A stretch of DNA of 64,000 bases from a bacterium (GTDB taxonomy: Bacteria; UBA8248). Numbering within the stretch: the stretch's first letter is position 1; every line of letters begins with the position of its first letter. Shown here piece by piece: positions 9,497 to 11,977 of this stretch. The DNA lies in NCBI GenBank assembly GCA_963692865.2, contig OY843592.1:320001-384000 (forward strand), read 5' to 3'. Made by a program: the position numbers and the translations under genes. The notes under the pieces were generated by a model that was not told the origin of the DNA, made no database searches, and worked only from the letters and a program-made list of their open reading frames with translations.

Positions 9497-10678
9497 TCAG
9501 GGTTTCCCGCGTTCGTCGAATCGTTCGAGCAGTTCGCCCAACGCGCCCAGCGGAACTACCTCGCCGTCCCGGCGGGACTGCCGCTCCGGGCCTCCATAGA
9601 CGACGGCTCCGTGAACGATACGCGGCAACGCCCTCGCCACACGGCGAAAGGCGTCGAACCAGTCGGAGGCGACCGTCGCGCCGGACTTGATCTCGATGAC
9701 GCCCACCCCGTCTCCGTTCTCGTAGAGAAGGTCGCACTCCAGCCCCCGGACGTCCCGGAAGAAGGACAGGTTGGAGCGGCGCCCCCGGTTGAAGCGGTGC
9801 TTGAGGGCCTCTGCGACGACGGCGTTCTCGAACAGCGTCCCCCGAAGCGGGTGGGTGCCCAATTGCCCGGCGTGTTCGATGCCGATGAGGTGGCTTGCCA
9901 ACCCGACGTCGTGGAAGTAGAGCTTGGGTGACTTGACCAGACGCTTGCGGACGTTGGCGAAAAACGGCGGCAGCTGGAAAACGATGTAGCTCGCTTCGAG
10001 AATCGTCAGCCAGTGGCGCGCCGTGGTGTGGGAGACGCCGGCGTCCGCGCCCAGGGCCGAGAGGTTGGCGAGTTGTCCCACGCGCCCGGCGCACAGGCGG
10101 ACGAACCGGCGGAAGCCGGAGAGGTTGCGGATCTCGCCGATCCGGCGCACGTCGCGCTCCACGTAGGTTTCGAAATAGTCGCCGAGCGCCTGGCGGGGTT
10201 CGAGCTTCTGGTCGTGAATCCGGGGGTAGAAACCGGAATAGAGAACGTCGTCGACCGCTTCGCTCGCGCCCGTCCGCCGCCTTTCGGCGAGCGAGAACGG
10301 CAGCAGGCGCAACAGCGCCGTGCGCCCGGCGAGCGACTGGCCGATGGCGTCGGAGAGCCGGAACTGCTCGCTGCCCGTCAGCACGAAGAGGCCGTTTCTT
10401 CCCGCCCTGTCGGCCAATACCTGGAGATAGGACAGGAGTTCGGGGACGCGCTGTATCTCGTCCAGGACGGCGCCGTCGCCCAGCCGGGAGAGAAAACCCC
10501 GGGGGTCGGTTTCGGCGAATTCCCGCTGGTCCGGCGCCTCGAGGTTGACGTATTCGAGGTGCGGAAAGGCGGCGCGGCAAAGCGTGGTTTTGCCCGACTG
10601 CCTCGGGCCGGTCACCGTGACGAACGGGTATTGTTCGAATAACGCCGTCAGGCAAGGGGTGATCTCACGCTCGATCAT
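9497..10678 (-). CDS. AAA ATPase with DUF4143 domain
   Basis: GPRQSGKTT Walker A, LDEIQ Walker B, TGS, LAGR, KSPKLYFHDVGL, LFEN, ECD..EIK. Start MIEREI, since the longer track ORF overlaps the tRNA. Confidence 0.9.
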   Translation of the reverse strand: MIEREITPCLTALFEQYPFVTVTGPRQSGKTTLCRAAFPHLEYVNLEAPDQREFAETDPRGFLSRLGDGAVLDEIQRVPELLSYLQVLADRAGRNGLFVLTGSEQFRLSDAIGQSLAGRTALLRLLPFSLAERRRTGASEAVDDVLYSGFYPRIHDQKLEPRQALGDYFETYVERDVRRIGEIRNLSGFRRFVRLCAGRVGQLANLSALGADAGVSHTTARHWLTILEASYIVFQLPPFFANVRKRLVKSPKLYFHDVGLASHLIGIEHAGQLGTHPLRGTLFENAVVAEALKHRFNRGRRSNLSFFRDVRGLECDLLYENGDGVGVIEIKSGATVASDWFDAFRRVARALPRIVHGAVVYGGPERQSRRDGEVVPLGALGELLERFDERGKP

Positions 10679-10816
10679 GGGGACAGGGTAGCGCGAAAAT
10701 GGCATAATTGCAAGTACTACTTTCAATATTGCAACATGCGCGGGCGTAGGCGGACGGCAAACATGCAAGAAAGCCGCGGGAAAGCCGGGCCTCGACACGG
10801 GCCCGCCGGTATGAAT

Positions 10817-10909
10817 TGGCGGAGAGGGAGGGATTCGAACCCTCGAGGCGCCTTGTGGGCGCCTATACGATTTCCAGTCGTACTCCTTCGGCCTCTCGGA
10901 CACCTCTCC
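10817..10909 (-). tRNA. tRNA-Ser (anticodon GGA)
   Basis: GGAGAGG acceptor stem pairing CCTCTCC, anticodon loop CT-GGA-AA, long variable arm GGCGCC..GGCGCC, GGTTCGAATCC T-arm, encoded CCA. Confidence 0.96.
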
Positions 10910-11008
10910 GCGGGAGCGGGGCCGCCGCGTGAAAGCGTAAGGCGGCCATGCGGGGATTTGTATACCACGGACGGCGGGGGACTGTCAGTCCGCCGTCTTC
11001 ATCGCGCC

Positions 11009-11037
11009 TTGACTTTTCGCAGCGCTTCCCGGATGAT
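11009..11037 (+). promoter_or_regulatory. Candidate sigma70 promoter
   Basis: TTGACT-17 nt-GATGAT, divergent from the tRNA, just upstream of a small terminated unit. Confidence 0.5.
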
Positions 11038-11043
11038 GCGGCC

Positions 11044-11213
11044 ACGTCAGAAAGGAGGTGATCCCAATATGAAAACACACTGTAGGGACGAGGTGACCGG
11101 CGTCTAGGGGAGAGAGCCCTCGGGAGATTCCCACGGGTTTATCTTCGCCCAGGCGAATCCCCACCAGGTCACCGAACGATGGGAAACCCCGGTCCGCGAG
11201 GGCCGGGGTTTTT
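11044..11213 (+). ncRNA. Candidate structured small RNA or micro-ORF transcript (12-aa ORF MKTHCRDEVTGV at 11069-11107)
   Basis: Promoter upstream; AGAAAGGAGGTGATCC SD; GGTGACC/GGTCACC and GGGGA/TCCCC long-range pairing; intrinsic terminator. Confidence 0.5.
11184..11213 (+). terminator. Intrinsic terminator
   Basis: AAACCCCGGTCC-GCGA-GGGCCGGGGTTTTT: GC stem, GNRA loop, T-run. Confidence 0.8.
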
Positions 11214-11280
11214 CACGTCGCGTCATTTGAAAACTTTCATCTTTCACGTCTTTTGTCTTCAAGCATAAGGAGCGCGTTTC

Positions 11281-11739
11281 ATGTCGCAGACGAACTGGAC
11301 GGTCTATCTATCGGGAGAAGTGCACACCGACTGGCGCGAGCGCATCACCGGGGGCGCGGAAAAAGCGGGGCTTCCGATCACCTTTCTCGCCCCCGTAACG
11401 GACCACGACGCGAGCGACGACTGCGGCGTGTCCATCCTGGGCGATGAGGAAAAGCCGTTCTGGAAGGACCGCAAGGGGGCGGGCGTCAACGCCATCAGGA
11501 CGCGCACGCTCATCGAGAAGGCGGACGTGGTGGTCGTTCGCTTCGGGGAGAAATACAGGCAGTGGAACGCCGCCTTCGACGCGGGCTACGCGGCGGCCCT
11601 GGGAAAGGCCCTCATCACCCTGCACGAGCCGGGTCACACGCACGCCCTCAAGGAGGTGGACGCCGCCGCCATGGCCGTGGCCGAAGAGCCCGAGCAGGTA
11701 GTGCGTATCCTGAACTACGCCGTCAACGGGACGTTGTAG
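11281..11739 (+). CDS. YtoQ family protein (nucleoside 2-deoxyribosyltransferase-like)
   Basis: VYLSGEVHTDWRE, HDASDDCG, RFGEKYRQWNAAFDAGYA motifs; AGGAG RBS. Confidence 0.88.
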   Translation: MSQTNWTVYLSGEVHTDWRERITGGAEKAGLPITFLAPVTDHDASDDCGVSILGDEEKPFWKDRKGAGVNAIRTRTLIEKADVVVVRFGEKYRQWNAAFDAGYAAALGKALITLHEPGHTHALKEVDAAAMAVAEEPEQVVRILNYAVNGTL

Positions 11740-11750
11740 CGGGCGTGCAT

Positions 11751-11977
11751 GGGGTTGCTGGAAAAGTCCGTTTCGCTCGGAATTGACCACCGCCGTCATT
11801 CCGGCGAAAGCCGGAATCCATTTTTCGCCTTTTGCCTTTCGTCAGGGTTCCCGCACATCGGCGGGGAAGGAAACGCCGCCGTTCATTCATCCGCATCCGC
11901 AAATGGATTCCGGCTTTCGCCGGAATGACGAACAAAACCGAACCGCCTCGAAAGGACAGGTCTCGACCTGTCCCTAC
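11751..11977. repeat. TIR-headed element carrying family B REP doublet (GTCATTCCGGCGAAAGCCGGAATCCA) at 11795-11929
   Basis: GGGGTTGCTGGAAAA left end; perfect 26-bp inverted REP arms; homologous to 23047-23367. Confidence 0.85.

What the first reader, a model, noticed from the sequence alone, without database searches (positions are those of the whole stretch)
11009..11213. Stand-alone small transcript with a 16-nt perfect complement to the 16S rRNA tail and a 12-codon ORF
Seen: promoter TTGACT-17-GATGAT, then AGAAAGGAGGTGATCC (11049-11064), the exact complement of the conserved GGATCACCTCCTTTCT 16S end. It is followed by ATG, MKTHCRDEVTGV and a stop. The ORF end is enclosed in long-range helices (GGTGACC 11092-11098 with GGTCACC 11167-11173; GGGGA with TCCCC) before a GNRA-capped terminator. 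The other RBSs I read here are much shorter. Inference: an undescribed ribosome-binding RNA (30S sponge or stalling RNA), a micropeptide gene, or an attenuator of the YtoQ gene.
Basis: partly seen in the sequence, partly recalled or inferred. Interest (0 to 1): 0.7.

Follow-up and report, generated by a model that had tools for sequence, protein, structure and literature searches.

The report
Ribosome-docking small mRNA with full-length Shine-Dalgarno
This is a conserved, stand-alone RNA of about 170 bases whose front end pairs perfectly with the whole free tail of the ribosome's 16S RNA and is followed by a 12-codon reading frame; it belongs to a little-studied but already described kind of ribosome-binding mini-mRNA, found here outside the bacterial groups where that kind was known.

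Summary
Window 11049-11064 is the exact complement of this genome's own 16S 3' tail. The only other copy of that 16-mer in 4.15 Mb is the 16S gene itself, and the next-longest match is 12 nt.

The unit spans 11044-11213, with a promoter-like site and a hairpin plus T-run. A covariance model finds it in 37 of 41 other genomes of the family and 5 of 7 of a sister family. Downstream genes differ between genera, so it is not a ytoQ attenuator.

It is not undescribed:
- It is the kind reported as rreB/rre small mRNAs in Alphaproteobacteria (PMC5711450), which bind 30S and are weakly translated.
- Its core is homologous to the uncharacterised Rfam sRNA Ms_IGR-5. Relatives score up to 43.4 bits against a cut-off of 45. 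A model without the SD still finds the actinobacterial and Ignavibacteria copies.

In 54 of 54 copies from three phyla a start codon follows the SD, and the stop lies exactly 9 nt after an invariant in-frame GAGGUG. The peptide itself is not conserved.

Best reading: a ribosome-docking small mRNA. Its cellular role is unknown.

The parts
11009..11037 (+). Promoter-like site: -35 TTGACT (11009-11014), 17-nt spacer, -10 GATGAT (11032-11037)
   Evidence: 1 site found, 0.1 expected. TTGAC and a -10-like hexamer are kept in most relatives while the bases between the -10 and the conserved block vary.
11044..11213 (+). Whole element (about 170 nt): inferred transcript from a +1 A to the end of the T-run
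   Evidence: The CM hit covers G000:C1:331044-331213 at 192 bits. The conserved block starts at A11044, 7 nt after the -10. Metatranscriptome contigs of 4 studies cover about 11056-11225 or further (contigs only, so the ends are not shown).
11045..11048 (+). H0 helix, 5' strand (CGUC); pairs with 11087-11090
   Evidence: 4 of 4 pairs show changes on both sides. Variants are CGUC:GACG, CGCG:CGCG, CAUC:GAUG, CAC:GUG and GCU:AGC.
11049..11064 (+). SD1: 16-nt exact complement of the organism's 16S 3' tail
   Evidence: Predicted duplex with the tail is -29.2 kcal/mol, against -11.6 for a canonical SD. The 5' half is predicted 0.76 unpaired. Nearly all substitutions inside it in relatives are A to G, which keeps G.U pairs; the exceptions are at its 3' edge.
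11069..11107 (+). sORF of 12 codons (MKTHCRDEVTGV) plus the TAG stop (11105-11107)
   Evidence: The frame, start and stop are kept in 50 of 50 aligned copies and in 4 of 4 further copies.
11087..11090 (+). H0 helix, 3' strand (GACG); spans codon 7 and the first base of codon 8
11090..11096 (+). SD2: invariant in-frame GAGGUG(A), ending 9 nt before the stop; also the 5' strand of P1
   Evidence: the G, G, U, G columns never change. Searches (9-nt spacing in 50 of 50; 4 of 4). Duplex with the tail is -13.2 kcal/mol.
11092..11100 (+). P1/P1b 5' strand (GGUGAC, then GG)
   Evidence: pair 63:198 reads AU 27, GC 11, GU 11.
11102..11108 (+). P2 5' strand; contains the stop codon
   Evidence: 6 of 6 pairs show changes on both sides.
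11109..11147 (+). P3: variable apical hairpin
   Evidence: 4 of 4 pairs show changes on both sides.
11148..11154 (+). P2 3' strand
11155..11163 (+). Conserved unpaired loop GAAUCCCCA; the AAU bases are invariant within the family and kept in all but two copies across phyla
11164..11173 (+). P1b/P1 3' strand (CC A GGUCACC); its UCACC is identical to part of the 16S tail
11187..11213 (+). Intrinsic-terminator-like hairpin (stem 11187-11195 with 11200-11208, loop GCGA) and T-run 11209-11213
   Evidence: 12 of 13 pairs show changes on both sides. The simple scan did not call it.
10817..10909 (-). Divergent tRNA-Ser(GGA): a neighbour, not part of the element
   Evidence: A tRNA lies upstream in several relatives.

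Best explanation
The element is a stand-alone small mRNA of the rre type and a distant homologue of the Rfam sRNA Ms_IGR-5.

Shown here:
- It has its own promoter-like site and terminator-like hairpin.
- It carries a 16-nt block complementary to the entire free 3' tail of the organism's 16S rRNA.
- A start codon sits at a workable distance, followed by a 12-codon frame.
- Covarying helices H0, P1 and P2 contain codons 7-12 and the stop codon.
- An invariant GAGGUG lies 9 nt before the stop.

Inferred mechanism:
1. The 5' half of the block is exposed in the loop closed by H0 and captures a free 30S subunit by a duplex of about -29 kcal/mol.
2. This over-long duplex allows initiation but slows clearance, as measured for rreB.
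3. When the ribosome does elongate, it must melt H0, P1 and P2.
4. At the stop codon its anti-SD can re-pair with GAGGUG at ordinary SD spacing.

The RNA would thus hold a ribosome at both ends of a very short track. The act of ribosome binding and translation, rather than the peptide, would set the RNA's conformation and lifetime. What the cell gains from this is not known. Possibilities are sensing or buffering of free 30S, or a trans role for the unfolded 3' domain.
For: Exact, unique 16-nt complement of the organism's own 16S tail.

Conservation as an independent unit:
- CM hits in 37 of 41 other genomes of family f1 and 5 of 7 of f4; 0 of 2 in the two other families of the order.
- The downstream gene differs between genera.

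Pairing with 16S is what is conserved:
- Nearly all substitutions inside the 16-mer are A to G; the exceptions lie at its 3' edge.
- In the 2 family genomes where I checked both, the 16S tail is unchanged, so G.U pairs remain.

Structure:
- 13 of 41 pairs show compensatory change in a MAFFT alignment of 28 family copies.
- On the 55-row model-fitted alignment, 94.4% of cells pair, 29 of 41 pairs change on both sides, and 0 of 500 shuffles reach this.

Translation is part of the design:
- 50 of 50 copies keep an in-frame start (ATG 39, TTG 9, GTG 2) 7-11 nt after GGAGG.
- Stops are TAG 41, TGA 7, TAA 2.
- A 3-nt in-frame insertion occurs in f4.
- The stop is 9 nt after GAGGUG in all 50 and in 4 of 4 further copies.

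The constraint is at RNA level:
- Residue 7 changes D to G or S together with changes in the H0 helix, compensatory in one copy (U-A to C-G, L072); a synonymous GAC to GAU change is matched by G to A at the 5' end (L078).
- GGUG:CACC never varies while neighbouring pairs covary.
- Peptides from different phyla share only E-V, which is the GAGGUG motif.

Accessibility: the 5' half of SD1 is 0.65 unpaired on average, the 3' half 0.34.

Homology to Ms_IGR-5: the SD-less model R2 gives 8 hits in 577 kb, all at the expected spot in the Ignavibacteria locus and 7 actinobacterial loci. RF02471 scores 43.4, 42.0, 34.7, 32.7, 29.1 and 25.7 bits on relatives.

Published biochemistry for the analogue rreB: 30S co-sedimentation, weak translation caused by the long SD, and stabilisation when the start codon is removed (PMC5711450; abstract and sections 13, 18, 19 read).

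Transcript: short contigs in 4 of 4 metatranscriptome runs from 4 studies cover the element.
Against: - Nothing here shows ribosome binding for this RNA. That step is borrowed from rreB, and sequence homology to rreB is not shown: CC2171 scores 24.2 bits against a cut-off of 75, and R2 gives no hit in the alphaproteobacterial loci.
- In rreB the complementarity runs into a GTG start. Here an ATG lies 4 nt beyond it, so translation may be less impeded.
- The rreB authors saw no growth effect of over-expression and argued against simple ribosome sequestration (section 19).
- RNA evidence is from contigs only. These cannot show ends, strand or level. One contig runs on into ytoQ, and DNA carry-over is not excluded.
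- The constant 9-nt spacing could be a by-product of the fixed P1-P2 geometry.
- The 55-row alignment was fitted to the model, which inflates pairing counts.
- The start codon of the window's copy is predicted to be mostly paired (0.23 unpaired).
Confidence: 0.6

Rival explanations
1. It is an ordinary micropeptide gene. The 12-residue peptide is the functional product, and the long SD serves only to drive expression.
For: - The reading frame, start and stop are kept in 54 of 54 copies, with turnover among start and stop codons and an in-frame 3-nt insertion.
- Within the family, Cys5 and D/E-V are mostly kept.
- The rre sORFs are conserved within their clades (PMC5711450, section 18).
Against: - Between phyla only E-V is shared, and it is encoded by the SD-like GAGGUG that also forms P1.
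- Codons 5-9 are nearly frozen at synonymous sites within the family.
- Residue 7 changes to G or S together with changes in the H0 helix, one of them compensatory.
- ORF length varies from 10 to 14 codons while the GAGGUG-to-stop distance does not.
- In rreB the long SD lowers translation rather than raising it (PMC5711450).
Confidence: 0.15
2. It is a trans-acting base-pairing sRNA. The SD-like 5' block or the AAUCC loop is a seed for mRNA or RNA targets, and the sORF is incidental.
For: - It is a stand-alone unit with a conserved unpaired loop and a strong terminator hairpin, as in many sRNAs.
- The relatives Ms_IGR-5 and CC2171 are catalogued as sRNAs and detected by Northern blot or RNA-seq (passages read in bioRxiv 10.1101/2021.12.14.472595, bioRxiv 10.1101/2022.01.24.477521 and PMC8780764).
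Against: - The 5' block matches the 16S tail over its whole length and ends where the tail ends. Its substitutions keep pairing with an unchanged tail.
- Start and stop codons are maintained in every copy.
- I did not search for any target.
Confidence: 0.1
3. It is a leader-peptide transcription attenuator of the downstream ytoQ gene.
For: - ytoQ follows on the same strand in 21 of 23 loci of the genus.
- No second promoter-like site was found between the terminator and ytoQ.
- One RNA contig runs from the element into ytoQ.
Against: - ytoQ follows in 0 of 7 loci from other genera.
- In the five other genera scanned, the next genes are an amino-acid kinase (opposite strand), URO-D, an amidase, a PNPOx protein (opposite strand) and a glyoxalase.
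- Actinobacterial and alphaproteobacterial relatives are stand-alone sRNAs.
- I saw no alternative antiterminator pairing and no run of regulatory codons.
Confidence: 0.05

Closest known systems
rreB / rreR (rre) small mRNAs of Alphaproteobacteria (Hahn et al., RNA Biol 2017, PMC5711450)
   Same: - A stand-alone transcript of about 165-170 nt with its own promoter and terminator.
- 16-17 nt of perfect complementarity to the whole single-stranded 16S 3' end.
- A very short sORF directly downstream (14 or 18 codons there, 12 here).
- The 5' part of the SD is predicted single-stranded and the 3' part is in a hairpin.
- A tRNA gene is the neighbour (tRNA-Gly there, tRNA-Ser here).
- An SD-like motif lies a few nt before the stop in several rre types (a post hoc observation).
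   Different: [quoted passage not shown]
- There is no detectable sequence homology beyond the SD and the terminator.
- The start is an ATG 4 nt after the complementarity, rather than a GTG overlapping it.
- The core here (GAGGUG, AAUCC loop, CAG-UCACC) is not seen in the alphaproteobacterial loci.
- 30S binding and weak translation were measured for rreB, not for this RNA.
Rfam RF02471 Ms_IGR-5 (actinobacterial sRNA, uncharacterised)
   Same: - The 5' SD block.
- A 12-codon sORF ending x-E-V-x-x-x and then a stop.
- The H0 helix just before AGGUG.
- P1 GGUG:CACC and the AAUCC loop.
- The SD-less model built from this phylum finds 7 of 9 actinobacterial loci at the right spot.
- Family relatives score 43.4 and 42.0 bits against a cut-off of 45.
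- Position 1 of the conserved block is A; a +1 A start site is reported for IGR-5 (passage in bioRxiv 10.1101/2021.12.14.472595).
   Different: - The window copy scores only 16.7 bits.
- It comes from a different phylum.
- P3 and the 3' part differ.
- In the papers I searched and read, Ms_IGR-5 is not linked to an extended SD, a sORF or rre genes.
Rfam RF01867 CC2171 (Caulobacter sRNA)
   Same: The Rfam consensus begins with the same GAAAGGAGGUGAUCC block and ends in a GC-rich terminator. The element is the best CC2171 hit in its own genome (E 0.007). A Bosea locus with the block scores 88.5 bits.
   Different: The score is 24.2 bits against a cut-off of 75, and the middle of the alignment has low confidence. 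The resemblance lies in the SD and the terminator only.
STAB-SD-type 5' stabilisers and SD-dependent programmed pauses or frameshifts
   Same: An SD-like sequence engages the anti-SD of a ribosome for a purpose other than, or in addition to, ordinary initiation.
   Different: Those elements sit in the leaders or coding regions of long mRNAs. Here the whole transcript is built around the two SD-like sites.

Membership tests
rre small mRNAs (rreB/rreR) | At least 16 nt of perfect complementarity to the organism's own 16S 3' end, upstream of a sORF | tested here: met
   16 of 16 nt at 11049-11064 against the 16S gene end.
rre small mRNAs (rreB/rreR) | Stand-alone small transcript (about 165 nt) with its own promoter and terminator | tested here: inconclusive
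   Supported in silico: promoter-like site, covarying terminator hairpin and varying neighbour genes. RNA contigs cover it, but the ends were not mapped.
rre small mRNAs (rreB/rreR) | Short sORF conserved within the clade | tested here: met
   12 codons in 36 of 36 family copies; 14 codons in 5 of 5 copies of the sister family.
rre small mRNAs (rreB/rreR) | The complementarity region runs into a GTG start codon | tested here: not met
   An ATG lies 4 nt downstream of the 16-mer. The paper notes ATG starts as an exception in Azospirillum (section 18).
rre small mRNAs (rreB/rreR) | Strong association with 30S subunits, weak translation, start-codon-dependent decay | not testable with these tools
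   Only computed: duplex energy -29.2 kcal/mol and predicted accessibility.
rre small mRNAs (rreB/rreR) | Sequence or structure homology to the alphaproteobacterial genes | tested here: not met
   CC2171 scores 24.2 bits against 75. The SD-less model R2 gives 0 hits in the 69 other loci, most of them alphaproteobacterial.
Rfam RF02471 Ms_IGR-5 | Score at or above the gathering cut-off (45 bits) | tested here: not met
   The window copy scores 16.7 bits. Relatives score 43.4, 42.0, 34.7, 32.7, 29.1 and 25.7 bits.
Rfam RF02471 Ms_IGR-5 | Shared core architecture (H0, GAGGUG/P1, AAUCC loop, sORF with the stop 9 nt after GAGGUG) | tested here: met
   The loci that pass RF02471 (62-102 bits) align to the model built from this phylum.
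Rfam RF01867 CC2171 | Score at or above the gathering cut-off (75 bits) | tested here: not met
   24.2 bits.
Leader-peptide transcription attenuator | Conserved linkage to the regulated downstream gene | tested here: not met
   ytoQ follows only within one genus. The next gene differs in the 5 other genera scanned and is convergent in 2 of them.
Leader-peptide transcription attenuator | Mutually exclusive terminator and antiterminator pairings, and regulatory codons in the leader | not tested
   None was seen in the consensus fold and the peptides have no codon runs, but I ran no dedicated search.

The most novel reading that the evidence does not exclude
Small mRNAs with a full-tail SD may form one widespread, functionally unified class of ribosome-engaging RNAs. 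The class would span Alphaproteobacteria (rreB, rreR, CC2171), Betaproteobacteria, Actinomycetota (Ms_IGR-5), Ignavibacteria and this small phylum.

Their shared design holds the ribosome twice: at initiation by a duplex covering the whole 16S tail, and at termination by a second SD-like site about 9 nt before the stop.

On this reading the RNA reports on or buffers the pool of free, mature 30S subunits, or marks ribosomes. The peptide would be a by-product.
Probability: 0.25. Interest if true: 0.8.

Novelty: new member of a known kind. Interest (0 to 1): 0.55.

Why it matters
Small mRNAs with a full-length SD have been reported only from Alphaproteobacteria, and their role is still called elusive.

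This element shows three things:
- The same device exists in a small, unrelated phylum.
- Its core is shared with an orphan actinobacterial Rfam sRNA (Ms_IGR-5) and with Ignavibacteria.
- Some features survive across phyla while the peptide does not: the full tail complement, a closing helix that presents it, an in-frame GAGGUG exactly 9 nt before the stop, and an AAUCC loop.

These invariants turn an open question (what do such RNAs do at the ribosome?) into specific mutations to test. Tractable organisms already carry a homologue, namely Mycolicibacterium smegmatis and Streptomyces.

For annotation, it argues that Ms_IGR-5 and CC2171 should be read as small mRNAs, and that the Rfam models miss relatives outside their founding phyla.

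Tried and rejected
- **Rfam at gathering thresholds.** It found only the tRNA in the window. The element is seen only in E-value mode.
- **blastn hits outside the element.** Four of the 37 genomes counted (G024, G031, G037, G040) match only through 21-31-nt stretches of the terminator or P3. I did not count these and used the CM searches instead.
- **Terminator scan.** It returned none.
- **Small pairs inside the SD region.** RNAalifold proposed helices 2-4 there, but one search shows no change on both sides for them, so I treat them as unsupported. A hairpin between the 3' part of SD1 and codons 5-7 is clear by eye in f4 and the actinobacterial copies but weak in this genus. I did not test it formally.
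Not supported.
- **RNA contigs.** No contig of the four RNA runs covers 10922-11055, and three contigs begin at 11056-11057. These are contigs, and I laid no DNA run beside them, so this does not map a 5' end. I draw no habitat conclusion beyond noting the runs' labels (marine and sponge metagenomes). The contigs differ from the window by 3 to 26 letters, so they come from relatives.
- **Fifteen genomes of other phyla.** They gave only 19-25-bit hits. The three best are terminator-like hairpins without the SD block, so 0 of 15 is credible. They are a small sample.
- **Naming the organism.** NCBIfam names of 10 window proteins give no taxon hint. The one public record of the same genus is titled only 'MAG: bacterium' (L111).
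- **Stop-proximal SD-like motif in other rre types.** In a shuffle test, 5 of 7 multi-member types have a median p below 0.1. I chose the 5-11-nt window after seeing the data, and kin are not independent, so it is a lead only.
- **Alignments: rows left out.** A1 used 28 of 30 loci. I left out L009, whose element is identical to L006, and L033, which is cut by a contig end. A3 used 37 distinct cores out of 41.
- **Papers.**
  - PMC5711450: abstract, sections 13, 18 and 19, and term searches.
  - The other four papers (bioRxiv 10.1101/2022.01.24.477521, bioRxiv 10.1101/2021.12.14.472595, PMC8780764, PMC10454040): only passages around search terms.
  - Li et al. 2013, the source of Ms_IGR-5, was not read.
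  - Supplements were closed. Fig. S1 of PMC5711450 (extended alignments) may bear on the homology question.
  - 'Not in print' rests on the searches only.
Full report
**What is there**

- TTGACT (11009-11014), 17 nt, then GATGAT (11032-11037).
- The 16-mer AGAAAGGAGGTGATCC (11049-11064).
- ATG at 11069, a 12-codon frame (MKTHCRDEVTGV) and TAG at 11105-11107.
- GGTGACC (11092-11098) facing GGTCACC (11167-11173).
- A GC-rich hairpin (11187-11208, loop GCGA) followed by five T.

The promoter scan finds exactly this one site in 10900-11320 (0.1 expected). The RNA 11044-11216 folds at -77.4 kcal/mol, with z = -4.21 against 200 shuffles. A tRNA-Ser(GGA) lies divergently at 10817-10909.

**Is the 16-mer really the 16S tail, and is it chance?**

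The genome holds one 16S gene (C1:510897-512447 on the minus strand, 1585.9 bits). Its 3' end, read on the plus strand, is the same 16-mer. In 4.15 Mb the 16-mer occurs exactly twice, in the element and in the rRNA gene. One further site has a single mismatch, inside what reads as coding sequence.

Among 15,146 GGAGG-anchored sites, the contiguous match to the 16-mer is 16 nt at those two places, then 12 nt (3 sites) and 11 nt (9 sites). The element is a lone outlier, not the top of a continuum of strong ribosome-binding sites.

**Conservation and independence from neighbours**

A covariance model built from 28 family copies (A1, R1) gives these counts:

| Group | Genomes with the element |
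|---|---|
| Other genomes of family f1 | 37 of 41 (all 22 of the genus) |
| The two other families of the order | 0 of 2 |
| Sister family f4 of the same class | 5 of 7 |

The phylum has only 51 held genomes.

ytoQ (TIGR03646) follows the element in 21 of 23 loci of the genus and in 0 of 7 loci from other genera. In the five other genera scanned, the next genes are an amino-acid kinase and a PNPOx protein on the opposite strand, and URO-D, an amidase and a glyoxalase on the same strand. The unit is therefore autonomous. This removes the ytoQ-attenuator reading as its general function. Within this genus, read-through into ytoQ remains possible: no second promoter-like site was found, and one RNA contig spans both.

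**Structure**

The consensus fold has these parts:
- A short helix H0 between nt 2-5 of the RNA and the four bases just before AGGUG. It closes a loop that holds the 16-mer and the start codon.
- A long-range helix P1/P1b (GGUGAC, GG with CC, GUCACC).
- P2, which contains the stop codon.
- A variable apical hairpin P3.
- A conserved unpaired loop GAAUCCCCA.
- The terminator hairpin.

In the MAFFT alignment of the family, 13 of 41 pairs show compensatory change. On the wider, model-fitted alignment of 55 rows:
- 94.4% of cells pair.
- 29 of 41 pairs change on both sides.
- 0 of 500 shuffles reach the observed values.
- Sliding the partners by 1-3 columns drops pairing to 34-57%.

That alignment leans towards the structure by construction. 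H0, however, is bracketed by invariant anchors and can be read directly from the sequences. It occurs as CGUC:GACG here, CGCG:CGCG in f4, CAUC:GAUG and CGC:GCG in other genera, CAC:GUG in Actinobacteria and GCU:AGC in an Ignavibacteria genome.

**Coding or not?**

In all 50 full-length copies aligned (36 f1, 5 f4, 1 Ignavibacteria, 8 Actinobacteria), one search shows:
- An in-frame start 7-11 nt after GGAGG (ATG 39, TTG 9, GTG 2).
- 12 codons in 45 copies and 14 codons in the 5 f4 copies, which carry a 3-nt in-frame insertion.
- A stop (TAG 41, TGA 7, TAA 2) exactly 9 nt after GAGGUG.

Four more copies from the Ignavibacteria class have 10-11 codons and the same 9-nt spacing. Starts and stops are thus maintained through turnover, which argues that translation matters.

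The peptide sequence, however, does not behave like the selected product:
- Between phyla only E-V is shared, and E-V is GAGGUG.
- Within the family, codons 5-9 are nearly frozen at synonymous sites.
- Where residue 7 changes (D to G or S), H0 changes with it. In L072 one pair is compensated (U-A to C-G) and another is lost; in L071 the change leaves a U-G pair. In L078 a synonymous GAC to GAU change is matched by G to A at the 5' end.
- The four pairs GGUG:CACC never change on the 5' side in any phylum, while the neighbouring pairs covary.

This points to a sequence-specific role for GAGGUG beyond forming a helix. Its predicted duplex with the 16S tail (about -12 kcal/mol) equals that of a canonical SD (-11.6), and the 5' block reaches about -29.

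**Pairing with 16S is the conserved property of the 5' block**

Nearly all substitutions seen inside the 16-mer in relatives are A to G; the exceptions lie at its 3' edge. In two complete family genomes with such a change the 16S tail is unchanged, so a G.U pair replaces A-U. The one f4 genome checked also keeps the 16S tail.

The 5' nine bases of the block are predicted mostly unpaired (mean 0.65; 0.76 in the window copy). The 3' six bases are less so (0.34). This is the arrangement proposed for rreB.

**What it is related to**

Rfam's curated thresholds give nothing. In E-value mode the element aligns end to end with two orphan sRNA families: CC2171 (24.2 bits, cut-off 75) and Ms_IGR-5 (16.7 bits, cut-off 45).

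I scanned one genome per species for the 15-nt core of the block followed by a start codon.
- Most are Alphaproteobacteria.
- Others are Streptomyces, Kitasatospora, Nocardioides, Isoptericola and other Actinomycetota.
- Also present are an Ignavibacteria MAG, Burkholderiales/Bordetella, Gemmatimonadetes and Phycisphaerales.

Of the 18 loci tested, four of the six actinobacterial ones pass RF02471 (62-102 bits) and a Bosea locus passes RF01867 (88.5 bits).

Because those loci were selected by the SD, I built a second model without the SD and terminator, from this phylum only (A3, R2). In 577 kb it gives eight hits with E up to 10. All lie at the expected spot, in the Ignavibacteria locus (28.4 bits) and seven of nine actinobacterial loci. 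None lies in the other 69 loci.

In the other direction, RF02471 scores 43.4 and 42.0 bits on copies from other genera of this family, and 29.1 and 25.7 bits on f4. In the Ignavibacteria class, 5 of 41 sampled genomes carry it at 42-52 bits. Fifteen genomes of other phyla gave nothing credible.

The element is thus a diverged member of the Ms_IGR-5 lineage. With the alphaproteobacterial RNAs it shares the kind (SD block, sORF, terminator) but shows no detectable homology.

**Literature**

Hahn et al. (PMC5711450; abstract and sections 13, 18, 19 read) describe rreB:
- It is a 165-nt small mRNA with 17-nt complementarity to the 16S 3' end and a 14-codon sORF.
- It localises to the ribosomal fraction and co-sediments with 30S.
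- It is translated weakly because of the long SD and the GTG start.
- It is stabilised when the start codon is removed.

They report analogues only in four alphaproteobacterial orders and call the function elusive. Their text does not mention Rfam, CC2171, Actinobacteria or an internal SD.

IGR-5 is called 'validated but yet uncharacterized', with a +1 A start site and an NAD cap (passages, bioRxiv 10.1101/2021.12.14.472595). It is detected as a sRNA unit in Streptomyces avermitilis (passage, PMC8780764). CC2171 is confirmed by Northern blot in Methylorubrum (passages, bioRxiv 10.1101/2022.01.24.477521).

Six library searches found no paper that extends rre genes beyond Alphaproteobacteria or links Ms_IGR-5 to them. 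Only three papers in the library cite the rreB paper, and all appear to come from the same group.

**Expression**

Four of four metatranscriptome runs, from four studies, hold a contig over the element:
- Three contigs are only 182-186 nt long and cover about 11056/11066 to 11225/11233.
- One contig of 298 nt runs on to 11349.

The contigs differ from the window by 3-26 letters, so they come from relatives. Contigs cannot show ends, strand or level, and DNA carry-over is not excluded. This is supportive but weak.

**How it most likely works**

Shown here: the anatomy, its conservation, and the maintenance of the start, the stop and the two SD-like sites.

Borrowed from rreB: strong 30S binding and impeded translation.

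Inferred:
1. The 5' half of the block, presented in the loop closed by H0, seeds pairing with the 16S tail. The duplex then spreads over the whole tail.
2. Initiation at the ATG is possible but clearance is slow.
3. An elongating ribosome must open H0, P1 and P2.
4. With the stop codon in the A site, GAGGUG lies at ordinary SD spacing from the P site, so the anti-SD can re-pair there.
5. The UCACC strand of P1, which matches part of the 16S tail, is released at the same time.

I put 0.6 on this ribosome-docking small-mRNA reading. The alternatives get 0.15 (peptide as the product), 0.1 (classical base-pairing sRNA) and 0.05 (ytoQ attenuator).

**Verdict**

- The thing is a new member of a known kind, not a new kind.

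Its interest lies in three points: the extension across phyla, the link between two orphan Rfam families and the rre concept, and the invariant GAGGUG-9-nt-stop rule, which can be tested at the bench.

Noticed in passing
window 11794-11823 and 11901-11930: A perfect 30-nt inverted repeat pair, 77 nt apart, lies just downstream of ytoQ. Each arm is itself a small palindromic hairpin, so it looks like a REP-type intergenic repeat. I did not count its copies in the genome.
   Followed up: partly
L083-L162 (genome-contig loci): Small ORFs behind the same 15-nt SD block fall into several unrelated types:
- MSHGSA, 18 aa, in Sphingomonadales.
- MSR.xLE.GVGT, 18 aa, which looks like rreR.
- MSHC, 23-27 aa, which looks like CC2171.
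- MSSxF, 21-26 aa.
- MRDxQG, 24-26 aa, in Burkholderiales/Bordetella.

Single cases occur in Gemmatimonadetes and Phycisphaerales. Most are followed by a terminator-like hairpin.
   Followed up: partly
L083-L162, sORF 3' ends: In several of these other types, an SD-like purine-rich motif ends about 5-11 nt before the stop codon. In a composition-preserving shuffle test the median p is below 0.1 in 5 of 7 multi-member types. I chose the window after seeing the data, and the rreB paper's text does not mention it.
   Followed up: partly
L078, L079, L080, L082 (relatives in other genera): A tRNA gene lies 140-210 nt upstream of the element on the opposite strand, as in the window. In L080 a bacterial small SRP RNA lies next to that tRNA. 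rreB is also reported next to a tRNA gene (PMC5711450, section 13).
   Followed up: no
L111:5987-6211: A public MAG of the same genus carries a group II intron domain (RF02005, 168.6 bits) about 340 nt beyond the tRNA-Ser that lies upstream of its copy of the element. No such hit occurs in the window.
   Followed up: no
window 9497-10903 (-): The mechanical ORF upstream overlaps the tRNA-Ser gene at its 5' end, so its true start must lie further in. It has no NCBIfam match at E 1e-10.
   Followed up: no
G067:C5:7750-7846 (Kitasatospora genome of L097): Model R1 gives a second, partial hit there (28.5 bits, model positions 49-167), away from the Ms_IGR-5 locus. It may be a second copy of the 3' domain or only a terminator.
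   Followed up: no
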